DNA of 64,000 nt from an uncultured Halobacteriales archaeon. GTDB taxonomy: Archaea > Halobacteriota > Halobacteria > Halobacteriales > Halobacteriaceae. Under the pieces are notes generated by a model, which saw only the letters and a list, made by a program, of their open reading frames with translations, was not told where the DNA came from and searched no databases. The DNA lies in NCBI GenBank assembly GCA_964594685.1, contig CAZQNH010000002.1:2816-66815 (forward strand). The letters are read 5' to 3'. The position numbers were made by a program, and so were the translations under genes. Below, in pieces: positions 5,503-49,818 of this stretch (position 1 is its first letter; each line of letters opens with the position of its first letter).

Positions 5503-5575
5503 AGTCCCATGGGGTAGTGGCCAATCCTGTCAGCTTCTGGGGCTGACGACCCAGGTTCGAATCCTGGTGGGACTA
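5503..5575 (+). tRNA. tRNA-Gln, anticodon CTG; no intron, CCA not encoded
   Basis: Acceptor stem AGTCCCA/TGGGACT, anticodon arm TCAGC-TTCTGGG-GCTGA, T arm CCAGG-TTCGAAT-CCTGG. Confidence 0.97.
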
Positions 5576-14392: not shown

Positions 14393-15589
14393 ATGTCCGA
14401 TCCCCTCCTCGAAGTCAAGAATCTCAAGACCCAGTTCTTCACCGAAGAAGGCGTCGTGCGTGCCGTCGATGGCATCTCGTTTACTGTCAACGAAGGCGAG
14501 ATCGCCGGCCTGGTGGGTGAATCGGGTGCGGGAAAGAGCGTCGCTGCCCAGTCCATCATGCGTCTGGTCGAAGAGCCCGGGGAGATCGTTGGCGGAGAGG
14601 TCCTGTTCAAGGGCCAGCCGCTGATCCAGTACGAGGAGGTCGGCGAGGCCAAGGCTGACCCGGAATCGATCCTCGACGACGCGGACGATAACGTCGTCCG
14701 GCAGACCGACAGTGGGGCGGTCGAACTCCGGCCCACCGACGCGATGCTGACGAACGAGGAGATGCGACGCCGCATCCGTGGTCGCGAGATCGCGATCATC
14801 TTCCAGGATCCCATGGAATCATTGAATCCGGTGTACACCGTTGGGGGTCAGCTCCGGGAGTTCATCGAGATCAACCGGAACATGGGCGAGTCGGCGGCCA
14901 AGGACCTCGCGATCGAGATGTTCCGCGAGGTGGGCATCCCCGAGGCCGCCGACCGGTACTCGGATTATCCCCACCAGTTCTCCGGCGGGATGCGCCAGCG
15001 GGTGCTCATCGCGATGGCGCTGTCGTGCGAGCCCTCCCTCATCATCGCGGACGAGCCGACGACGGCCCTCGACGTCACCGTCGAAGCCCAGATTCTCGAA
15101 CTCGTCGACGAACTCCAGAAGGAGTACGCCACCTCTTTCATCTGGGTCACACACGACATGGGCGTCATCGCGGAGATCTCCGACCGGGTGAATGTGATGT
15201 ACCTCGGGGAGATCGTCGAACAGGCCGAAGTGGACGACCTGTTCCACGACACCAAACACCCCTACACCGACGCGCTGCTCGATTCGATACCGCGGCCGGA
15301 CCAGACCGTGGAGGATCTGCACCCAATCGCCGGGGTCATGCCTGAGGCGATCAATCCCCCGTCTGGCTGTCGGTTCCACCCGAGGTGTCCCGAGGCAAGA
15401 GAGGTGTGCACGCGGGTCCATCCGCATCCCGAGATCGTTGAGATGGACGGGGCACCCCACCGCTCGGCGTGTTTCAGGAACGATGACGTCTTCGACGTGG
15501 ATTACTGGGGGAGCGAACCCATCGAACTCCAGGCGGGTGCCGGGTTCGGTGCCGGGCTCGCCGAGGACCGCGGTGGTGGTGAGGAATGA
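14393..15589 (+). CDS. dppD: Peptide ABC transporter ATPase
   Basis: [31 protein letters not shown]-terminal GCRFHPRCP. Confidence 0.96.
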
Positions 15590-36059: not shown

Positions 36060-36228
36060 GTGAACACCACTCAGCACAATTTTCGGGGATGAAATCAGGT
36101 GTATTCCCCCGGGGCTGGATTGCGACCCAAAATATGATGGACCACTGTGGGATGGGTTGACTTGCGAATCGGTTCCAATCCACTGGAACCGACCATTCCC
36201 CCGCTACCGACCCCCGAATGTCCAATCA

Positions 36229-38168: not shown

Positions 38169-38864
38169 TCAGGCGAAATCGTCGAGTCCGGTCTGGGTCT
38201 CGGTGTCGGGCTCGACCGGCTCGATGACGGCGGCGGAATCGTTCTTCGGGTCGTTGACGGCCCGTGAGATGGGATAGGTATCGAGGTCGTCCTCGGGATA
38301 CGGCTGGAGGAGTTCAACCGCGTCCGCCGTCGTGTCCGCCCGCAGCCAGTCGCGCTCCACGTCAACCGGCAAAATCACGGGCATGCGGTCATGGATGGGT
38401 TCGAGGACCTCGTTAGCGTCGGTCGTGACGATGGTCACGGTTCGTTTCTGCTTGCTGTTATCCTCCCACTCGTTCCAGAGGCCCGCCATCGCGAACGGCT
38501 CCTCGTCCGCTCGCTCGATTCGGTAGGGCTGAGATGGGCCGCCGGGTTGGTCCTGCCACTCGTAGAACCCATCCGCGAGTACCAGACACCGTGTCTCCGC
38601 CACCGCGTCCCGGAACATCGGCTTCTCGGCGACCGTCTCGCCCCTGGCGTTGATGGGGCGGTAGGAGTCATCCGGACCGTCTGCCCACGAGGGCAGAAAG
38701 CCCCATTCGAACTGCTCGATGGTCTCGGGGGCGGCATCTGGGACCACCGGAAGGTCCTCGAACGGGGCGATGTTGTACCGCGGTTCGAGCGGTGCCGCGG
38801 CCTCGGCCTCGAACCGTGACTCCACGACAGCCTGGGGCAGGTAGAGGGAGGTCCGCCCGCACAT
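38169..38864 (-). CDS. SOS response-associated peptidase (SRAP/HMCES)
   Basis: N-terminal MCGR, PRYNIAP, INARGET, RCLVLADGFYEW, IHDRMPVIL. Confidence 0.95.
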   Translation of the reverse strand: MCGRTSLYLPQAVVESRFEAEAAAPLEPRYNIAPFEDLPVVPDAAPETIEQFEWGFLPSWADGPDDSYRPINARGETVAEKPMFRDAVAETRCLVLADGFYEWQDQPGGPSQPYRIERADEEPFAMAGLWNEWEDNSKQKRTVTIVTTDANEVLEPIHDRMPVILPVDVERDWLRADTTADAVELLQPYPEDDLDTYPISRAVNDPKNDSAAVIEPVEPDTETQTGLDDFA

Positions 38865-39074
38865 GGCACCGCCAACGGGTGGGGCGGATATAACAACGTC
38901 GGGGAAATGGCAGTACCCACCATCGCGCCGGACGGATACCACAGCGTCGGGCGGACCGGGAAAACCATCGATTGGGAGGGCGCGTATCGGTCCCGCCGGT
39001 GGCCAGCGGAATGGGACCGGATCACGCACCTCGTTCCGGGGGAGTTTTTACCCAGTCCAGCCTACTCATGGCCC

Positions 39075-40671: not shown

Positions 40672-41313
40672 ATGGCAATACTATCCGATCAGAACCGAAG
40701 CGACGTCGAGGAGGTCTTCGCGGAGATGGCCGAGGAGGTTACCGCCTACGTCTTCGTCGACGACGCGTGTGAGTACTGCGACGAGACCATCGAACTCAAC
40801 GAGGAACTCGAAAAACTCACCGACAAGTACACCCTCGAGGTCCACGATATCGACAGCGAGATGGCCGAAGAGTGGGACGCCGGGAAGTACGGCAACGCCC
40901 CGGTCACGATCATCACCGACGGCGACATCCGTGGGGTCCGGTACTACGGGATCCCCTCCGGCCAGGAGTTCGGCGCCTACGTGCGTGACATCGTCGCCGT
41001 CTCCACCGGCGAGAGCGGCCTCGACGAGGGAATCAAGGCCGAACTGACCGAGATCGACGAACCGGTGAACATCAAGGTCTTCGTCACGCTGACCTGTCCC
41101 CACTGTCCCCAGGCCGTCGAGACCGCCCACAAGTTCGCCATCGAGAACCCGAACATCACCTCCGAGATGATCGAGGCCCAGGAGTTCATGGAACTCTCCC
41201 AGGACTTCGGCGTCCGGGGGGTACCGCAGGTTAATATCAACGACGACGCCGGGCAGTTCACGGGTGCCCAACCGCCCCAGCAGTTCCTCCAGCAGGTAAA
41301 AAGCGCGCTTTAA
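40672..41313 (+). CDS. Protein-disulfide oxidoreductase (PDO / AhpF N-terminal-like, two thioredoxin folds)
   Basis: CEYC and CPHC motifs; YYGIPSGQEF, VFVTLTCPHCP, VRGVP, FTGAQP. Confidence 0.9.
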   Translation: MAILSDQNRSDVEEVFAEMAEEVTAYVFVDDACEYCDETIELNEELEKLTDKYTLEVHDIDSEMAEEWDAGKYGNAPVTIITDGDIRGVRYYGIPSGQEFGAYVRDIVAVSTGESGLDEGIKAELTEIDEPVNIKVFVTLTCPHCPQAVETAHKFAIENPNITSEMIEAQEFMELSQDFGVRGVPQVNINDDAGQFTGAQPPQQFLQQVKSAL

Positions 41314-41426
41314 GCGGGTCTTGGTCACCTTCTACGGGTTCTTTCGAAACCTCCGTCGCCGTTTGCCCGGACGGATGTGAGTTACCACGAGGGTGATACG
41401 TGGGATTTCGAGCGGCCCAGACGCAC

Positions 41427-41461
41427 TTTCTATTCGATACATATTCGATTGAAATATTTGT
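41427..41461. other. AT-rich patch (candidate DNA unwinding element)
   Basis: 27 of 35 bases are A/T; contains TATTCGAT twice (41431, 41442). Confidence 0.5.
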
Positions 41462-41490
41462 CAGACGACCGGCTGCCGGCCGCGGGCGCC

Positions 41491-41504
41491 GTTTCGGGTG
41501 CAAC
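41491..41504 (-). other. Mini-ORB-like box
   Basis: Minus strand GTTGCACCCGAAAC. Confidence 0.5.
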
Positions 41505-41525
41505 AACCCCTCCGTTTCAACTGGA
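41504..41525 (-). other. Origin recognition box (ORB) with G-string, copy A
   Basis: Minus strand TCCAGTTGAAACGGAGGGGTTG matches the archaeal ORB pattern TCCA-N3-GAAAC-N2-AGGGG. Confidence 0.75.
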
Positions 41526-41541
41526 TTGCCGGTTTCTTGAT

Positions 41542-41553
41542 GTTTCGGGTGTT
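41542..41553 (-). other. Mini-ORB-like box
   Basis: Minus strand AACACCCGAAAC; shares CACCCGAAAC with the 41491 box. Confidence 0.4.
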
Positions 41554-41608
41554 CCACGAATTCAACTGATAAATACACCTACCGTAATCGCGTTACTGGG
41601 ACACGTCC

Positions 41609-41630
41609 CAACCCCTTCGTTTCGTGTGGA
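41609..41630 (-). other. Origin recognition box (ORB) with G-string, copy B
   Basis: Minus strand TCCACACGAAACGAAGGGGTTG; 18/22 identical to copy A and 105 bp from it. Confidence 0.75.
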
Positions 41631-41641
41631 GTATCCTCCGG

Positions 41642-42299
41642 TCAGCCGGCTCCTGGGTCACTTTTCGACGTCCAGTAACGCCACGCGTTCGACGACGAGG
41701 GCTTCCAGGTCAGCGTCGGTCGCGCTTCGCTCGTCATCGGTGATCGCGAAGAACGATTCGATCCGCTCCGGATCCGGCTCGACGGACGCGGGTTGGATGC
41801 GTTCGCGGATCGCCTCCGCCGCGGCTGCCTCGTCGCCGCCGACTGCGACGACCACGAGGTGCTGGTCGCCCGTATCGACTCCCATCTCCATCGCCCGGTC
41901 GATCTGCCGCCGGCCCGCCGCGTAGAGCAGGACCTCCACGGCGGGCGAATCGGCCACGTTCTCGCCACGAGCGATGGCGCGTCGGGCGTGCTCGACCGCC
42001 GACCGGAGGTGTCCTGGCCCGGCCACGTACCTGGCATCGAAGGCCTGCACGATGCACTCGTGGGAGTCGGCGATGGAATCGAGTTCCTCGAGGAACGAAT
42101 CGAGGGAATCGAACCTACCCCGGGCAGCCACGTCGGCGCTTCCACCGTCTTCGTCGTTACCGGCGGTACTGGGGCCTTGATCGCTACCCTCGGCCCCGGG
42201 GCCCCTATCGCTTCCGGCGCTTCCGGTGTCGTCATCGGTACCCATCGGCTCGTCGCCGTCTGCCGGCCCGATCCGGACCCGACCCTCGATCACCTTCAC
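41642..42299 (-). CDS. cgi121: KEOPS complex subunit Cgi121
   Basis: [56 protein letters not shown]; GTG start overlaps the hel308 stop. Confidence 0.92.
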
Positions 42300-44587
42300 C
42301 CGAAATCACCCAGGTCGGATTGATCTGGCGAGTCGGGCGAGCCGCGTCCGTCCTCGCCGGTCGTCGTCGCGAGCCCGCTCGGCTCCGAGACGTCCGCCTC
42401 GAGATCGGACATGTCCGGGTCCGGGTGGCCCGCGCTAGCGAGGACCTTCTCGGCGGTCTTCCGCCGGCCGTTCAATGCCCGGAGGACTGCCGGCTTGTCG
42501 GCGTTCCGCAGGGCCTCCCGGCTCTCGAAGCCCGCATCGTGGAGCCGGCGGGCCCGTTTCCGGCCGATGTGCCGGACGCCGACCAGGTCGAGGAGATCCT
42601 CGCGGACGCCGTGCTCGACTCGGACACGGGCCTCGCGGACCCGCGCTGCGTTCCCCAGGTCGAGCTCACCGGCCAAGCTTTCGGCGGCGTGCAGCAGCCA
42701 GTCGGCGGTCTCGACCTTTCCGCGGATGTCCCCAGGACCCACGCCGTACCGCTCGGCGATGCGGTCCTCGTCGACCTCGTCGGCCCAGTCCTCGAGGAGG
42801 CGGCCGGTCTTGAGGGCGGAGAGCCAGTCCTCCCACTCGCCCTGGGCGAACTCGCTGGGTTGGTGGCCCAGTAGCTCGGCCTCCCGCTCGTAGGCGATCT
42901 CGGTATACGTCGACTCGTCGCCCGAGCGGAGATAGAGTTCGTACATGTCCGGGGTGCGGCTCACCAGGTGGTAGAGCCCGAGCGCGCTTGGCTCGTTCCC
43001 GCCGTCCCGCAGCCCATCGATGATCTCCGCGGCAGACATCGGGTCGACGTAGAGCTGGGAGACCAGATGCCCGCTCGGCGTCGCGGCGAGGCCATCGCCA
43101 TCGCGGTCGAGGAAATCGTTCGCGGCGAGGTACTCGAGGACGTCGTCGGTCACCCGCTCGAGTCGGCCGGGTTCCGCGGTCTGGGACGCATACAGGGTCC
43201 CCTCCAGGAACTCGAGGAGTCCGTCCCGGGTGGTAGCGAACCCGGTGGCCACGGTCGAGAGGACATGGGTCCTGAGGGCCGGCTCGGCCGCGAGCTTCGA
43301 CCGGACCGGTTCGGGCTCCCCGTAGATGTACTGGTCGAACAGTTCCTCGAGTTCTCCGTGGGAGTTCGCCAGGAGAAGCGCCTCACCGTAGGGGTCGAGT
43401 CCCGGGCGGCCCGCCCGTCCGAACATCTGGTGGATCTCCAGAGTCGAGAGCGGCTGCATCCCGCCCGCGGAACCGTCGTAGCGCTGCCAGTCCCTGACGA
43501 CAACCCGGCGGCTTGGCGTGTTCACCCCCGCTGCGAGGGTCGGGGTGGCACAGACCGCACGGATCCGCCGCTCGCGGAACGCCGTCTCGACGAGCGTGCG
43601 GTGGTCCCTGGCGAGGCCGGCATGGTGGAACGCGGCACCCCGCTCGACCGCATCTGCGAGGTCTTCACTGGTCTCCGTGTCGCTCACGGACCGGATCTCC
43701 GCGGCGATATCGGCCAACTCGTCCCGGTCTTCCGGGGTGAGATGCTCCTCGGTCACTTCGGCCTGTCGCCTGGCCGCAGCCTCCGCATTCCGTCGGGAAT
43801 TGACGAACACGAGGGCCGATCCGTCGTCGGCCAGGGTGTCCGCCACGATGGCCGCGGTCTGGCTCTTGCCGCCGGTGGATAGCTCCACCTGGGACCCGTC
43901 GTCGAAGTGCAGCGCGTTGCCGTAATGGACTCCCTTCTTCAGCTCTATCGGTCGCCAGGTCGAATCCACGAGGGCGGCCTCGAGCCAGGTCGCGATCTCG
44001 TCGGCGTTGCCGATGGTGGCCGAGAGCGCGACGACCTGCAGGCCGGGGACCCGCTTCCGGAGCTTCGCGAGGGTGACCTCGAGGGTCGGTCCCCGGTCGC
44101 GGTCGTCCACCAGGTGGACCTCGTCGGCCACCACGCAGGCCAGGTCGTCGATCCAGCCCGCGTCGTTCCGCATGAGGGAGTCGACCTTCTCCGAGGTCGC
44201 GACGATGACGTCCGCGTCGCCGAGCCAGGCCCCGTCACTCTCGTAGTTGCCCGTCGAGACCGCGACGTCGAGGCCGAACCGCTCAAGGTCCTCGAACTCC
44301 GCGGCTTTCTCGCTGGCGAGCGCCCGGAGCGGGACAATATATAATGCGGTCCCTCCTCCGTCACTGCCGCCATCGCCACGTTCCGGGCCGCCGATCGCGG
44401 ACAGCATCGCCAGCTCCGCGATCAGCGTCTTGCCGCTCGCCGTCGGGACGCTCGCGACGAGGTTCGCTCCTTCGAGCACGCCGGCCTCGACCGCCGCCGC
44501 CTGGGGCGGATAGAGCTCCTCGATACCCTCCTCGGCGAAGTGTGCCCCGACCCCGTCGGGCAGCCCCGACAGGTCCTCGACCTTCAT
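42296..44587 (-). CDS. hel308: Ski2-like DNA helicase Hel308/Hjm
   Basis: [49 protein letters not shown]-terminal Hh[10 protein letters not shown]. Confidence 0.96.
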
Positions 44588-45393: not shown

Positions 45394-46308
45394 TTACGAG
45401 ATCTCCGCGTACTGCTCCGAGAGCTTCTCGGCCGCGTCATCGAGCTGGTCACGTTCGAAGTCCGTCAGGTCCCACTCCACGACCTCCTCGACGCCCTCCC
45501 GCCCCAGTTTGAGCGGGACACCGAGTGCGACATCATCGAGACCATATTCGCCCTCGAGCGGGATCGAGCCCGGGATGACCTCGCCCGTATCCCGGAGGAT
45601 GGCCTCGACCATGTGGGCGACGCCGGTCGCCGGCCCCCACTCCGTGGCGCCTTTGCGGGAGATCACATTCATCGCGCTCTCCTGCAGGTCGGAGAGGATC
45701 TCCTCCTTCTCCGCGTCGTCGAAGGCCGGATCGCGACCGTCCACGCGGACCTTCGAGAACACCGGTACCTGGTCGTCGCCGTGCTCGCCCATGATCGCGG
45801 CGTCGACGTTCTGTACCGGGACGTCGAAGCGCTCGGCCAGCACGTACCGGAACCGGGCGCTGTCGAGCCGGTTACCGAATCCGATGACCCGGTGGCGGTC
45901 GCGGTCGCCGACCTCGTAGAGGTGCCGGTTGAGGATGTCGACCGGGTTCGAGGTGGTGACCGACACGAAGTCGTCGTTGTACTCGGCGAGCGAGGAGCCG
46001 ATATCCTCCATGATGGGGGCATTGTCCCCCGCGAGATCGAGCCGGGTCTGGCCCGGTTTCCGCGGGATCCCCGCCGTGATGATCACCACGTCCGACCCCT
46101 CAGTGGCCGAGTAATCGCCCTGGACGACCGTGGTGTTCGAGTCGTAGGCCACTCCGTGATTCACGTCTGCGGCCTGGCCGACAGTCTCGTCTTCCTTCTC
46201 CGGGATATCGACGAAGACGAGTTCGTCGACCACGTCCCGATACGCGAGGTTGTACCCGGATGCTGCCCCGACCGTGCCCGCTGCACCGATGACACTGACC
46301 TTGGACAT
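45394..46308 (-). CDS. mdh: Malate dehydrogenase (LDH-like)
   Basis: [48 protein letters not shown]. Confidence 0.96.
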
Positions 46309-46411
46309 ATGTAGCAAGGCGTCGCGAACCGATTTCAACCCTGGGGCATCATATACGGGGGAGGCCTGGATGATCTGGTGGGGCCCGCGGCGACCACCCG
46401 GATACTGTCGC

Positions 46412-48388
46412 TTAGTCGTCGGCGGCCGTGGGGCCGCCCTCACCCGATTCGTACTGCTTCTTGATGTGTGAGAGCTTCCCGCCGTCGGCGAGCATGCGGT
46501 ACTCGCGATCGGAGGCGTCGAGGTGTACCGTTGCCTCCCAGTCGTCCGCGACGCGGATGGTGAACGACTCCCGCCGCTCCGCCACTGCCGCGGCGACGTC
46601 CTCGACGATCTCGATCGGATCGTTCTCCTTGATACGGTCGTAGGTCGCCTCGTCGATCTCGAGGGGCAGCAAGCCGAAGTTGATGAGGTTGGCCTTGTGG
46701 ATGCGGGCGAATGATTTCGCGAGGACGCCTTCGACCCCGAGATACATCGGGCAGAGCGCGGCGTGTTCCCGCGAGGAGCCCTGGCCATAGTTCTTCCCCG
46801 CGACGAGGAACCCACCGTCCGCCGCGGCGGCCCGGTCGGCAAAGTCCTCGTCGATGCGCGAGAGGGTGTACGTCGAGAGCTCGGGGATGTTCGACCGGTA
46901 CATCAGGATGTCCTGGGTCGCGGGGATGATGTGGTCGGTCGTGATGTCATCACCCATCTTGAGGAGGGCCGGTCCCGACACGTCGCCGGAAAGCGGTTCT
47001 TTGAGGGGGACCTCGCCGATGTTTGGCCCCTTGATGAGTTCGTCGTCGACGGCCTCCGCGGGGGTGATGAGATCGGCCTTCGAGCCGTCGTACTGCTCGG
47101 GCATCTCGAACCCCGGGTCCGTTAATTCGGGAATCTCTTCGGCGAGGTCCCGTGGGTCGACGATCTCCCCGCTGAGGGCCGAGGCCGCCGCCACCTCCGG
47201 GGAACTCAGATACACGCTGTCCTCCTCGATCCCCGAGCGGCCTTCGAAGTTGCGGTTGAACGTCCGCAGGCTCACCGAGTCACTCGCCGGGACGTGACCG
47301 ATACCGATACACGCCCCGCAGGTCGATTCCGAGAAGTTTACCCCGGCGGCCATGAGTTTCGAGACCCAGCCGTGCCGGGCGAGCAGTTCCGAGGCCTGCT
47401 TGGAGGCCGGCGCCACGATCATCTCCGTGGCTTTGTCGATCTCACGCCCCTCGAGCATCTTCGCGACGGGGAGGACGTCTTCGTAACCGCCGTTCGTGCA
47501 GGAGCCGACCAGGACCTGGTCGACCGGCGTGCCGGCGACCTCTCGCACCGGGACGACGTTGTCCGGCATCGACGGTTTCGCGATCAGCGGCTCGACCTCC
47601 GAGAGATCCACGGTGATCCGGTCGGCGTACTCCGCGTCCGGGTCGGGTTCGAGTTCCTCGTAGTCCTCCGGGCGGCCGAGTCGCTCGAGGTAGTCCCGGG
47701 TGTGTTCGTCGGTGGGGAAGATGGACGTGGTCGCGCCGAGTTCGGTCCCCATGTTGGTGATGGTGGTCCGTTCGGGCACCGAGAGCGTGTCGACCCCCGG
47801 TCCCGTGTACTCGAATACCTTCCCGACTCCGCCCTCGACACCCAGCCGTCGGAGCATCTCCAGGATGACGTCCTTGGCCGTCGTCCACTCGCCGAGTTCG
47901 CCCGTCAGGCGGACCTCGACGACCTCCGGCATCTCGATATAATATGCGCCCCCACCCATCGCCACGGCGACGTCGAGACCGCCGGCCCCGATGGCGAGTT
48001 CTCCCAGGCCCCCGGGGGTCGGCGTATGTGAGTCGCTGCCGAGCATCGTCTTGCCCGGCGCGGCGAAGTTCTCCTTGTGGACGTTGTGACAGATGCCGTT
48101 GCCAGGCCGCGAGAAGTACGCGCCGTACGTCCCTGCGGCCGAGCGGAGGAACCGGTGGTCGTCGGTATTCTTATAATCGAACTGGTAGGTCTGGTGATCG
48201 CAGTACTGGGCCGCGAGTTCCGTCTGGAGTTCTTCGAGTCCGAGCGCCTCGAACTGAAGCCACACCAGCGATCCCGTGGTGTCCTGGGTGAGCACCTGGT
48301 CGATCTCGATGCCGATCTCTTCGCCCGGTTCGAGGTCGCCCTCGACGAGGTGGGCCGCCAGGATCTTCTCCGTGAGTGACTGTCCCAT
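46412..48388 (-). CDS. acn: Aconitate hydratase (short archaeal/mitochondrial-like type)
   Basis: [59 protein letters not shown]. Confidence 0.93.
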
Positions 48389-48549
48389 ACTACATCGTTA
48401 CCGGAAACTCGCCCAATAGGGTTCCGCTCGGGGAACGCGGTGTGGTCGATCGCCGGCCGAGTGTCTCTGGGTAGCCACCAGCCGAGTACCGCCTGTTGCG
48501 GCGGCCTGGAGTGCCCACTATTGAGGGGCCCGGGGCCCAAGGCCCGGTC

Positions 48550-49818
48550 GTGCGCCGACCGTCCCTGGACTCCGTCCGCGGGTTCGACCGGGCCGTGTAC
48601 GTGGTCGCCGTCGGTCAACTTATCAACGTCTTCGGCGGCGGCCTGGTCTATCCCTTCGCGACCATCCACTTCCACCTCCGGCTGGGCATCGCCCTCTCCG
48701 TCGTGGGCGCTGGATTCCTGGCGAAGAACGTCACGACGGCGGTCGCTACCTCGATCGGTGGGTATGTGGCCGACCGTCGCGGTCGGAAGCCAGTCATGGT
48801 GGGCAGCATGGCCGGGAACGCGGTCACGCTCGCCGCGTTCGCGTTCGTCCCGGGGATCGCGGCCGCGATCGGCCCGCTGTCCCCCGGCGGTGCCTTCATC
48901 CTTGTTGCGGCGGCGTCGGGTGCCACTGCCGGTCTCTACACGCCGGCCGCACAGGCCTACACGGCAGACGTGACCGCCGGGGAGGCGCGAGACCAGGCCT
49001 ACTCCCTGCTCAAGGTGGCGAACAACGTGGGCTTCGGCACCGGATTCGTGGTCGGGGGACTGCTCTATCAGGTGGCCAACGTCGCCATCTTCCTCGCGGA
49101 CGGCGGGACCTCCGCGGTGGTGGCCATCGTATTACTCCTGACCGTCCCGCGGCTCTTCGATGGGGAGTCGACCGGTCGCACGAGCGAGGCCCTGTCCACC
49201 TGGCGGCGGGCCATCACGGATCGGCGGGTGATCCACCTGGCTCTGCTGAACATCGGCTTCGCGATCATGTACGCCCAGATGCGGACCACCATCCCGATCG
49301 TGGCCGAGGAGCGGGTGGGCCTGGACAGCGCCCAACTGGGTACTCTCTTCGTGCTCAATCCACTCACCCTGGTCCTGCTCCAGATCCCGTTGGTCGACGC
49401 CATCGCCTCGTGGCGCCGGACCCGCGGACTCGTCCTCTCGGCCGGGTTCTGGGCGGTATCGATGGTCTCTGTCTGGCTGGCCTATCGCGCCGATCCGGCC
49501 TTCCTCCTCGGCGTGGCCCTCGTTGGGAGTCACCTGGTGTTGCGGACCATCGGCGAGGTGCTGCACTCCCCGATCGCCACGTCGCTGATGAGTGCTCTCG
49601 GAACCGCCGAGGAGCGGGGGTCCCAGCTCTCCGTCCTCGAGATCGCCAAGCGGTTGGGCTTCGGCCTCGGCTCCTTCGTCGGCGGTCTCTTCTTCGATTA
49701 CGGCCTTCAGGAGATCTTCTGGCCCCTTCTCGCGGTTTTCGCGGCGGTCCTCGTCGTGGGCATCCTCGGACTCGAGCGCCATGTGACCGCGACGGAGAAC
49801 GGGGTTCTCGCACAATAG
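48550..49818 (+). CDS. MFS transporter
   Basis: Motif A GGYVADRRGRKPVM, ~12 TM; start uncertain (GTG 48550 or TTG 48496). Confidence 0.9.
   Translation: MRRPSLDSVRGFDRAVYVVAVGQLINVFGGGLVYPFATIHFHLRLGIALSVVGAGFLAKNVTTAVATSIGGYVADRRGRKPVMVGSMAGNAVTLAAFAFVPGIAAAIGPLSPGGAFILVAAASGATAGLYTPAAQAYTADVTAGEARDQAYSLLKVANNVGFGTGFVVGGLLYQVANVAIFLADGGTSAVVAIVLLLTVPRLFDGESTGRTSEALSTWRRAITDRRVIHLALLNIGFAIMYAQMRTTIPIVAEERVGLDSAQLGTLFVLNPLTLVLLQIPLVDAIASWRRTRGLVLSAGFWAVSMVSVWLAYRADPAFLLGVALVGSHLVLRTIGEVLHSPIATSLMSALGTAEERGSQLSVLEIAKRLGFGLGSFVGGLFFDYGLQEIFWPLLAVFAAVLVVGILGLERHVTATENGVLAQ

What the first reader, a model, noticed from the sequence alone, without database searches (positions are those of the whole stretch)
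41314..41641. Orphan replication-origin-like locus: phased ORB/G-string boxes and an AT-rich element with no cdc6 gene
Seen: a 328-bp gap between convergent genes, where no promoter is needed. It contains minus-strand TCCAGTTGAAACGGAGGGGTTG (41504-41525) and TCCACACGAAACGAAGGGGTTG (41609-41630), 18/22 identical and exactly 105 bp apart (10 helical turns). There are also two mini-boxes sharing CACCCGAAAC (41491, 41542), and all four point their 3' ends toward a 77% AT patch (41427-41461) carrying TATTCGAT twice. Established: archaeal Orc1/Cdc6 binds ORBs, haloarchaeal ORBs carry a G-string, and known haloarchaeal origins almost always sit beside an orc1/cdc6 gene with inverted ORBs flanking the unwinding element. 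Here there is no cdc6 in the 64 kb window, and I found no inverted ORB left of the AT patch. Inference: a cdc6-less origin fired in trans, a dormant or half origin left at the edge of the inserted block, or a non-origin Orc1 site (titration, one-directional MCM loading or a fork barrier) next to hel308.
Basis: partly seen in the sequence, partly recalled or inferred. Interest (0 to 1): 0.85.

Follow-up and report, generated by a model that had tools for sequence, protein, structure and literature searches.

The report
Orphan initiator-binding boxes, probably not an origin
The gap after the hel308–cgi121 repair-helicase genes of this uncultured salt-loving archaeon holds genuine, evolutionarily conserved binding boxes for the replication initiator Orc1/Cdc6. 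It lacks the features a working replication origin needs, so it is most likely a non-origin docking or regulatory site for initiator-family proteins.

Summary
Two 22-nt boxes (41504-41525 and 41609-41630, minus strand, 105 bp apart) match the classic archaeal ORB. They score 30.6 and 31.8 bits on an ORB matrix; the next best site in 64 kb scores 3.0.

No orc1/cdc6 gene lies in the window. The true gap is 41314-41657, because cgi121 ends at 41658.

Relatives (Halodesulfurarchaeum, including cultured H. formicicum) keep ORB-A and a 47-nt composite element (mini-ORB, then GGCGCCCGCG, then two CWGACG boxes; window 41458-41504) at the same positions, while the rest of the gap has diverged. About a quarter of 80 sampled Halobacteria carry an ORB just downstream of cgi121.

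Origin hallmarks fail:
- All boxes are head-to-tail, with no inverted partner.
- There is no extended halophile G-string.
- The 35-bp AT patch is specific to this organism and lies on the wrong (G-string) side.
- Genes converge on the site.

The composite element is dispersed. In Halorubrum it sits upstream of, and co-oriented with, other genes, notably the rpa3-type RPA operon. Lone ORBs sit 43-115 bp upstream of other genes.

Best reading: a conserved non-origin Orc1/Cdc6-box cluster with a regulatory or sink role. An origin fired in trans is unlikely, about 0.12.

The parts
41314..41657 (.). Intergenic gap between the convergent genes pdo (+) and cgi121 (-)
   Evidence: ORF, GC3 and Pfam assignments. 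The gap is 344 bp.
41609..41630 (-). ORB-A: a classic ORB (mini-ORB plus short G-string), 28 bp after the cgi121 stop codon
   Evidence: 31.8 bits on the ORB matrix. Conserved at this position in all 8 aligned gaps, with invariant columns, and present in H. formicicum.
41504..41525 (-). ORB-B: a second classic ORB, 105 bp from ORB-A and 22 bp from the composite element
   Evidence: 30.6 bits. Present with the same 104-105 bp and 22 bp spacings only in the closest relatives, L001 and L108. Only degenerate remnants remain in the other relatives.
41458..41504 (-). Composite element: mini-ORB TTGCACCCGAAAC (41491-41503), GC box GGCGCCCGCG (41481-41490), then two CWGACG-type boxes (about 41458-41478)
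   Evidence: 54.7 bits on a 47-nt matrix, against a next best of -10 and a null maximum of -4.6 +/- 5.9. It is the most conserved block of the gap. It belongs to a dispersed family.
41541..41551 (-). Second mini-box (ACACCCGAAAC region)
   Evidence: Present in the window but not conserved in L108 or L001. Probably not functional.
41570..41577 (-). TATA-like GTATTTAT, preceded in relatives by a short hairpin and a T-run. Either the terminator of hel308-cgi121 or the promoter of an unannotated transcript.
   Evidence: A TTTA(T/A)-type box sits 35-38 nt after the ORB-A G-string in 6-7 of 10 relatives (alignment, sequence). No transcript data exist.
41427..41461 (.).
   Evidence: Real but specific to this organism. 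The aligned positions in L108 and L001 are GC-rich, and the other relatives lack the segment altogether. The maximum AT content over any 100 bp of the gap is only 54%.
41394..41412 (.). Small conserved block TGATACGTGGGATTTCGAG of unknown role
   Evidence: Partly conserved among the window, L108 and L001.
41658..42299 (-). cgi121 (KEOPS subunit), last gene of the hel308-cgi121 pair
   Evidence: Pfam CGI-121, E = 1.4e-11; homologues.
42296..44587 (-). hel308 helicase
   Evidence: Pfam Helicase_dom4_arc, DEAD and HHH_5.
40672..41313 (+). pdo: protein disulfide oxidoreductase (two thioredoxin folds), convergent with cgi121
   Evidence: NCBIfam TIGR02187, 234 bits; Pfam Thioredoxin_3.

Best explanation
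The gap holds a conserved cluster of recognition boxes for Orc1/Cdc6-family proteins. There are two classic oriC1-type ORBs and one 47-nt composite mini-ORB element, all head-to-tail on the cgi121 strand and on one face of the helix (spacings of 105 bp and 22 bp).

Shown:
- The boxes are real, and the oriC1-type ORBs are unique within the 64 kb window.
- They are under purifying selection in relatives.
- No orc gene lies within at least 22-41 kb here, or within 10 kb on either side in two relatives.
- Both box types occur elsewhere as single, intergenic, mostly promoter-upstream sites.

Inferred: initiator-family protein(s) bind here in a single polarity and therefore cannot load the head-to-head MCM pair that an origin needs. 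Instead the site acts in cis as a regulatory docking site at the 3' junction of the hel308-cgi121 operon and pdo. Most likely it controls transcription across the junction. That could be read-through or termination of hel308-cgi121, or a short unannotated transcript starting from the conserved TATA-like box. Either would couple this locus to initiator status, as DnaA boxes outside oriC do in bacteria and as Orc1-2 sites do in Sulfolobus. A secondary sink (titration) effect is possible.
For: ORB identity:
- Pattern search and matrix scores.
- Match to the euryarchaeal consensus GTTCCAGTGGAAAC-AAA----GGGGG (PMC1868953).
- Match to Halalkalicoccus ORBs next to an orc gene, TCCAGTTGAAACGAAGGGGT (PMC3528665 supplement).

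Conservation:
- The invariant columns of the 8-way gap alignment fall on ORB-A and the composite element, while mean identity across the gap is 40%.
- The same elements are present in cultured H. formicicum and in metagenome relatives.
- There are 22 ORB hits within 0-500 bp downstream of cgi121 in 78 loci, and none inside hel308 or cgi121. Of these, 19 of 22 are in the same polarity as here.

Not origin-like:
- No inverted partner.
- No extended G-string (compared).
- The AT patch is not conserved and lies on the G-string side, whereas canonical oriC1 has the TCCA ends facing the unwinding element.
- Both inverted ORBs and their extended G-strings are essential at H. hispanica oriC1 (PMC3936714). 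Each of ORB2 and ORB3 is essential in Sulfolobus (PMC12141716).

Regulatory flavour:
- 63 of 68 strong ORB hits are intergenic.
- Lone ORBs lie 43-115 bp upstream of, and co-oriented with, a speE-like gene, a rhodanese gene in many Natrialbaceae and mdh in Haladaptatus. One lies 15 bp upstream of orc1 itself.
- The composite element lies upstream of and co-oriented with the next gene in 10 of 10 non-gap contexts, including the rpa3-type RPA operon.
- It shows no consensus RNA structure and has no Rfam match.

Precedents: non-origin Orc1 ChIP-seq sites in Sulfolobus (PMC3607249), and Orc1-2 binding a GTTTC-containing promoter element (PMC6061795).
Against: - In this gap both flanking genes end, so no annotated promoter is available to be regulated. 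The promoter or terminator reading of the TATA-like box and T-run is untested, because no RNA data exist for this organism.
- No protein binding has been shown for any of these sites.
- The regulon-like contexts of the composite element come mainly from one genus (Halorubrum) and are functionally mixed: RPA, an SMC-like protein, a DHH protein, eIF2-gamma, GTP cyclohydrolase III and a methyltransferase.
- The ORB matrix was built from relatives' sites chosen with the same core pattern, so it is partly circular, although it agrees with published consensus sequences.
- Only 12-20 kb around each relative's locus could be inspected, so the genome-wide distribution is unknown.
Confidence: 0.5

Rival explanations
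1. A replication origin without its own cdc6 (an accessory or dormant origin). Orc1 made elsewhere binds the ORBs, and MCM is loaded at the AT-richer DNA in the gap.
For: The ORBs are genuine oriC1-type. There are three boxes on one helical face. The spacer between ORB-A and ORB-B is the most AT-rich 100 bp locally, at 47% GC. The locus lies in the set of replication and repair genes (hel308, hef, PolD) that surrounds oriC1 in H. volcanii (PMC1868953). Origins not adjacent to orc genes are acknowledged as possible (PMC3528665).
Against: - There is no inverted ORB pair. Loss of either inverted ORB abolishes activity in H. hispanica and Sulfolobus.
- There is no extended G-string, which is essential in H. 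hispanica.
- The AT patch is 35 bp, not conserved, and on the wrong side of the boxes.
- Most relatives keep only one ORB plus the composite element in a GC-normal gap of 210-290 bp.
- Genes converge on the site from both sides.
- There is no GC-skew inflection.
Confidence: 0.12
2. An initiator sink, like datA or oriC2D. The boxes titrate Orc1 and damp firing of oriC1, without any local transcriptional role.
For: In H. hispanica the ORB-rich, non-origin oriC2D negatively controls oriC2, and ORBs downstream of ori-cdc6 pairs are said to be common (PMC3936714). In Haladaptatus the cgi121-downstream ORB lies about 6 kb downstream of oriC1-orc1, in the same polarity as the origin-side ORBs. Retention after separation from orc1 fits a function that works in trans.
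Against: There are only 2-3 boxes here, and 1-2 in most relatives, against 11 in oriC2D. The site is not next to any cdc6. The strict positional conservation at the 3' end of one operon and the fixed polarity are not needed for a sink.
Confidence: 0.15
3. A protein roadblock, insulator or chromosome-architecture site at a convergent junction. Bound protein stops read-through or marks a domain boundary, and the binder need not be Orc1.
For: In several lineages the ORB or composite element sits between convergent units: cgi121 or a small acidic gene on one side, pdo or a tRNA on the other. A hairpin plus T-run follows ORB-A. The palindromic CTGACG..CGTCAG part of the composite element suggests a dimeric binder.
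Against: Elsewhere both box types are promoter-upstream and co-oriented with genes. No data on 3' ends or chromosome contacts are available.
Confidence: 0.1
4. The conserved blocks are RNA-level features: a small RNA gene or a structured 3'UTR.
For: A TATA-like box is conserved upstream of the composite element. In Halorubrum, RNA-derived contigs span the element together with rpa3.
Against: There is no Rfam match at E up to 10. RNAalifold finds no consensus structure in 29 copies. The sequence equals known protein-binding ORB DNA. Contigs cannot show transcript ends and may contain DNA.
Confidence: 0.05

Closest known systems
Haloarchaeal oriC1 ORB elements (Halo-ORB; Norais 2007, Wu 2012)
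   Same: The core is the same: TCCA-N3-GAAAC-N3-GGGG, that is, mini-ORB plus G-string. The boxes are near-identical to ORBs found next to orc genes, such as TCCAGTTGAAACGAAGGGGT.
   Different: The boxes lack the extended halophile G-string (GGGGTGGGGGG). They are not in an inverted pair around an unwinding element, and they are not next to orc1.
oriC2D, the ORB-rich negative-control region of Haloarcula hispanica (Wu 2014, PMC3936714)
   Same: It is a cluster of ORBs with no expected origin activity, and it offers a plausible initiator-titrating role.
   Different: oriC2D has 11 ORBs directly downstream of its cognate cdc6E. Here there are 2-3 boxes with no cdc6 within tens of kb. These boxes are of the oriC1 type and are conserved at the end of the hel308-cgi121 operon across genera.
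Non-origin Orc1/Cdc6 sites and the Orc1-2 DNA-damage-response element of Sulfolobus (PMC3607249, PMC6061795)
   Same: An initiator-family protein is used away from origins. The element core GTTTC/GAAAC is shared, the position is promoter-upstream, and DNA-damage genes are among the neighbours (the rpa3 operon, and hel308 nearby).
   Different: It is a different phylum. The element here is far longer (47 nt, with a GC box and a palindrome). Binding and regulation are untested, and the window copy has no gene downstream.
DnaA boxes outside oriC in bacteria (datA, DARS, promoter boxes)
   Same: Origin-type initiator boxes are reused as dispersed, conserved, non-origin sites.
   Different: The initiator family is unrelated, so this is an analogy only.

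Membership tests
Archaeal Orc1/Cdc6-dependent replication origin | ORB elements matching the consensus | tested here: met
   Two boxes at 30.6 and 31.8 bits against a null maximum of 5.2 +/- 3.1. Consensus sequences.
Archaeal Orc1/Cdc6-dependent replication origin | At least two ORBs in inverted orientation flanking the unwinding element | tested here: not met
   All four boxes are on the minus strand. There is no plus-strand ORB or inverted repeat in the gap. The requirement is shown.
Archaeal Orc1/Cdc6-dependent replication origin | An AT-rich duplex unwinding element on the mini-ORB (TCCA) side of the boxes | tested here: not met
   The patch is 35 bp, lies on the G-string side and is not conserved in L108, L001 or the other relatives. 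Canonical polarity was read from L030 and from the H. jeotgali sequence.
Archaeal Orc1/Cdc6-dependent replication origin | Halophile-specific extended G-string on the ORBs that flank the unwinding element | tested here: not met
   The boxes end in GGGGTTGGGAC and GGGGTTGTTGC. Bona fide oriC1 ORBs end in GGGGTGGGGGGG. Essentiality is shown.
Archaeal Orc1/Cdc6-dependent replication origin | An adjacent orc1/cdc6 gene | tested here: not met
   None in 64 kb. None within 10 kb on either side in H. formicicum or the L081 MAG.
Archaeal Orc1/Cdc6-dependent replication origin | Autonomous replication or a marker-frequency peak | not testable with these tools
   Only assembled metagenome contigs are available for this organism.
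ORB-rich initiator-titrating region (oriC2D type) | A dense ORB cluster directly downstream of the cognate cdc6 gene | tested here: not met
   There are 2-3 boxes and no cdc6 nearby.
ORB-rich initiator-titrating region (oriC2D type) | Negative effect on firing of the cognate origin | not testable with these tools
   This needs genetics.
Orc-type transcriptional operator (Orc1-2/DDRE-like) | Promoter-upstream position, co-oriented with the regulated gene | tested here: inconclusive
   Met for the other copies: 10 of 10 non-gap composite elements, and lone ORBs 43-115 bp upstream of genes. Not met for the window copy, which lies between two gene ends.
Orc-type transcriptional operator (Orc1-2/DDRE-like) | Binding by an Orc1/Cdc6 paralog and dependence of expression on it | not testable with these tools
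   No ChIP or expression data exist for these organisms.
Structured non-coding RNA | Match to a curated RNA family, or a conserved secondary structure with covariation | tested here: not met
   No Rfam match. RNAalifold predicts 0 pairs in 29 copies.

The most novel reading that the evidence does not exclude
Halobacteria use ORB-derived operators to wire initiator-family (Orc1/Cdc6) proteins into gene control. Two operator types would be involved: single classic ORBs, and a 47-nt composite element (mini-ORB, GC box, then two CWGACG boxes). The hel308-cgi121 junction, the rpa3 RPA operon and other loci would form a replication and repair regulon read by Orc1 or by one of the many 'orphan' Orc paralogs whose function is unknown.
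Probability: 0.3. Interest if true: 0.8.

Novelty: new variant of a known kind. Interest (0 to 1): 0.6.

Why it matters
Haloarchaea encode up to about 16 Orc1/Cdc6 paralogs, and most have no origin and no known job.

If origin-type boxes are conserved far from any origin or orc gene, this gives concrete, testable DNA targets for non-initiator roles of these proteins. The boxes sit at the end of a repair-helicase operon. A related composite element sits upstream of the UV- and radiation-inducible rpa3-type RPA operon.

The finding also warns that ORB matches alone over-predict origins. Polarity, the extended G-string and conservation of the unwinding element have to be checked as well.

Tried and rejected
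- **RNA-level explanations.** Rfam at gathering threshold found only tRNA-Gln at 5503. Permissive Rfam searches on the gap and on a Halorubrum copy found nothing credible. RNAalifold on 29 copies predicted no structure. The RNA gene idea was rejected.
- **Reaching the rest of the 120.7 kb contig** to look for oriC1. The window's own proteins are not on record, so the distance to the nearest orc1 in this organism stays unknown.
- **Transcript evidence.** There are no RNA runs for this organism. Halorubrum RNA contigs span the composite element and rpa3 but cannot give transcript ends.
- **GC skew** across the window shows no inflection at the gap and is weakly informative.
- **att-site or mobile-element idea** for the composite element. 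It has no hits in viral contigs and only chance-level hits in PLSDB plasmids. The L003 insertion carries cargo genes and no integrase. The idea was not supported, although recombination between copies is likely.
- **A 37-codon ORF** after the AT patch. Its TATA-like box is too close to the start codon and it is not conserved in relatives. It was rejected.
- **Literature search** for the exact box sequences found no paper. The composite element is absent from the orc-adjacent intergenic regions of 15 haloarchaeal genomes.
Full report
**1. What is in the sequence**

The region lies between two convergent genes. On the left is a protein disulfide oxidoreductase (40672-41313, plus strand; NCBIfam TIGR02187). 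On the right is cgi121 (41658-42299, minus strand; Pfam CGI-121), which overlaps the end of hel308 (42296-44587, minus strand).

That ORF is in the wrong frame: it has no Pfam hit, and its GC3 does not support it. The gap is therefore 41314-41657, or 344 bp.

They are 18/22 identical and 105 bp apart. They are the only matches in 64 kb, against 0.06 expected. The two CACCCGAAAC mini-boxes and the 35-bp, 77% AT patch with TATTCGAT twice are also real.

**2. The boxes are true ORBs**

They fit the euryarchaeal consensus GTTCCAGTGGAAAC-AAA----GGGGG quoted for H. volcanii oriC1 (PMC1868953). They are almost identical to ORBs printed for an orc-adjacent origin of Halalkalicoccus jeotgali, TCCAGTTGAAACGAAGGGGT (PMC3528665 supplement).

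A position matrix built from 56 exact-core ORBs found in relatives' loci scores them at 31.8 and 30.6 bits. The next best site in the window scores 3.0, and the null maximum per 64 kb is 5.2 +/- 3.1.

**3. The boxes are orphan**

Pfam scans of about 50 ORFs and a six-frame tblastn with a verified Orc1 from Haladaptatus found no orc1/cdc6 anywhere in the window. That covers at least 41 kb to the left and 22 kb to the right.

The organism is an uncultured haloarchaeon. Its nearest named relatives are Halodesulfurarchaeum, at 59-66% Cgi121 identity. The gene neighbourhood (hef, hel308, PolD large subunit) is the repair and replication set that surrounds oriC1 in H. volcanii.

**4. Relatives**

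I fetched 80 loci around cgi121 from one genome per species, plus longer loci from a Halodesulfurarchaeum MAG and from cultured H. formicicum.

The order hel308 - cgi121 - gap - pdo (convergent) - hmgA is kept in the Halodesulfurarchaeum clade. An alignment of eight gaps has 40% mean identity. Its invariant columns fall on two blocks:
- ORB-A, the box next to cgi121.

H. formicicum has both blocks in a 211-bp gap.

ORB-B occurs only in the window and its two closest relatives, L001 and L108. In those three, the 104-105 bp ORB-A to ORB-B spacing and the 22 bp ORB-B to composite spacing are the same. The second mini-box and the AT patch are not conserved, even in these two relatives.

Across all 80 species, matrix hits form a sharp hotspot. 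There are 22 hits within 0-500 bp downstream of cgi121 and none inside hel308 or cgi121. Of the 22, 19 are in the polarity seen here. The taxa include Halodesulfurarchaeum, Haladaptatus, Halomicrococcus and Halonotius (inverted in the last). Halorussus and Halospeciosus carry theirs a little further out, at 660-900 bp. The site is therefore old and maintained, not debris.

**5. Why it is not a canonical origin**

Haladaptatus loci show what a real oriC1 looks like next to this operon. An ORB on the minus strand and an ORB on the plus strand, both with extended G-strings (GGGGTGGGGGGG), flank an AT-rich stretch. Their TCCA ends face inward, and orc1 starts about 650 bp further on. The H. jeotgali sequence shows the same polarity.

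The window differs on every point:
- All boxes share one polarity.
- Their G-strings are short.
- The AT patch lies on the G-string side, is 35 bp long and is organism-specific. The richest 100 bp of the gap is only 54% AT.
- Most relatives have only ORB-A and the composite element, in a short gap of ordinary composition.

Experimental literature supports these criteria:
- At H. hispanica oriC1, deleting either inverted ORB or mutating either extended G-string abolishes autonomous replication (PMC3936714).
- In Sulfolobus, each of ORB2 and ORB3 is individually required (PMC12141716).

Genes converge on the gap from both sides. GC skew shows no inflection.

**6. The composite element is a dispersed family**

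An exact-pattern scan of metagenome contigs found 25 loci, and only about five of them are the cgi121 gap. The flanking part that was not in the search pattern (G.C.GACG..CGTC.GACG) is 81-97% conserved, so the unit is about 47 nt. The window copy scores 54.7 bits, the next best site in the window scores -10, and the null maximum is -4.6 +/- 5.9.

Outside the cgi121 gap the element lies upstream of, and co-oriented with, the next gene in every context examined:
- In at least eight loci it lies about 130 bp upstream of the TTTTAATAC TATA box of an operon whose first gene is a replication factor A (NCBIfam NF005553, 485 bits). That protein is 99% identical to the Halorubrum lacusprofundi protein.
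- It lies upstream of an SMC/Rad50-like coiled-coil protein.
- It lies upstream of a DHH (RecJ-like) protein.
- It lies upstream of eIF2-gamma, divergent from a NOG1-type GTPase.
- It lies upstream of GTP cyclohydrolase III.
- Three tandem copies lie upstream of a methyltransferase.

In all 10 of these non-gap copies the element points the same way as the next gene.

Other properties of the element:
- It has no consensus RNA structure and no Rfam match.
- It is absent from the orc-adjacent intergenic regions of 15 haloarchaeal genomes, from viral contigs and from PLSDB plasmids.
- In Salarchaeum (L050) it occupies the slot (after a small acidic gene, before a tRNA) that a full ORB occupies in Haladaptatus. 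In Halospeciosus (L024) it follows the same small acidic gene, with two further ORB-like boxes between it and the tRNA. This links the two box types.

**7. Lone classic ORBs are also promoter-upstream elsewhere**

Of 68 strong hits, 63 are intergenic. Examples:
- 43 bp (H. formicicum) to 114 bp (L081 MAG) upstream of a spermidine-synthase-like gene in Halodesulfurarchaeum.
- 54-91 bp upstream of a rhodanese gene in many Natrialbaceae.
- About 110 bp upstream of mdh in Haladaptatus.
- 15 bp upstream of orc1 itself.

**8. Most likely mechanism**

Shown: real, conserved, polar, orphan initiator-type boxes, and sister sites in promoter-upstream positions.

Inferred: Orc1 and/or an Orc paralog binds here in one polarity and so cannot set up the head-to-head helicase loading of an origin. 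The site works in cis at the end of the hel308-cgi121 operon.

A hairpin, a T-run and a TATA-like box sit at a fixed 35-38 nt after ORB-A in most relatives. This could be the operon terminator or the promoter of an unannotated transcript running over ORB-B and the composite element, antisense to pdo. I cannot tell which, because no RNA data exist.

Precedents:
- Many non-origin Orc1/Cdc6 ChIP-seq sites, with altered transcript profiles in single orc mutants, in Sulfolobus (PMC3607249).
- Orc1-2 binding a GTTTC-containing element in DNA-damage promoters (PMC6061795).
- Secondary UV-response roles suggested for H. volcanii Orc1 and Orc10 (PMC12890983).
- UV and radiation induction of the rfa3 operon in Halobacterium (PMC5924565).

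My confidence that this is a non-origin initiator-box cluster acting in cis on transcription is 0.5. If the sink and roadblock rivals are counted with it, the broader verdict that this is not an origin stands at about 0.75-0.8. The specific transcriptional sub-mechanism is the weakest step.

**9. Rivals**

- An origin fired in trans: 0.12.
- A pure initiator sink like oriC2D or datA: 0.15.
- A roadblock or architectural site whose binder may not be Orc: 0.10.
- An RNA element: 0.05.

Each rival is set out with its refuting experiment in its own section.

**10. Novelty and score**

Known already: ORBs, non-origin ORB clusters next to a cdc6 gene (oriC2D), and non-origin Orc binding in Sulfolobus.

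Not found in the literature I could search:
- An oriC1-type ORB cluster conserved at the 3' end of hel308-cgi121 across Halobacteria, independent of any orc gene.
- A 47-nt composite mini-ORB element dispersed upstream of genes such as the rpa3-type operon.

I rate this a new variant of a known kind, with interest 0.6. It is still substantial because it gives testable targets for the unexplained Orc paralogs.

Noticed in passing
L003:2422-2455 and L003:5592-5625: In one Halodesulfurarchaeum MAG the cgi121-pdo gap carries a 3170-bp insertion encoding an MFS transporter and a gamma-glutamyltranspeptidase. It is flanked by a perfect 34-bp direct repeat of the composite element and carries no integrase. 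This suggests that gene cassettes move by recombination between copies of the element.
   Followed up: partly
L012:11636-11665, L052:8864-8893 and about 12 other Natrialbaceae loci: A single, near-perfect ORB sits 54-91 bp upstream of, and co-oriented with, a rhodanese-domain gene 2-6 kb downstream of cgi121. It is conserved across many Natrialbaceae genera.
   Followed up: partly
L083:14466-14495; L081:14736-14765 and 14795-14824: A lone ORB lies 43 bp upstream of a spermidine-synthase-like gene in H. formicicum, and 114 bp upstream (as an inverted pair) in a related MAG. The window lacks it. At the matching place it has only a palindrome, GGTTCCAGTGGATTGGAACC (window 36162-36191), which scores below background.
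   Followed up: partly
L100:1296-1600: Three tandem composite elements, 123-159 bp apart, lie upstream of a SAM-dependent methyltransferase gene in a GC-rich region with no AT-rich stretch.
   Followed up: partly
L024:7285-7395: In Halospeciosus flavus the region after cgi121 and a small acidic gene holds a composite element, an inverted mini-ORB pair and a degenerate ORB just before a tRNA gene. This is a lineage-specific arrangement that does include opposite polarities.
   Followed up: no
L088:2350-2470: In Halorubrum RNA runs, a stretch of about 70-120 nt upstream of the rpa3 locus has very high depth and joins to many different flanks. It is a multi-copy, highly expressed element, possibly a tRNA or a repeat.
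   Followed up: no
window 38169-39029 (-) and 45394-49818: Compared with H. formicicum, the window has an extra SRAP (SOS-response-associated peptidase) gene between the spermidine-synthase-like gene and hmgA. It also has an extra mdh-aconitase-MFS block upstream of hel308. Other relatives also have mdh there.
   Followed up: no
L030:6538-6912, L024:6526-6913, L050 (upstream of 6867): A small (about 125-145 aa), very acidic protein with no Pfam or NCBIfam family follows cgi121 in Haladaptatus, Halospeciosus and Salarchaeum. It is absent from the window's clade.
   Followed up: no
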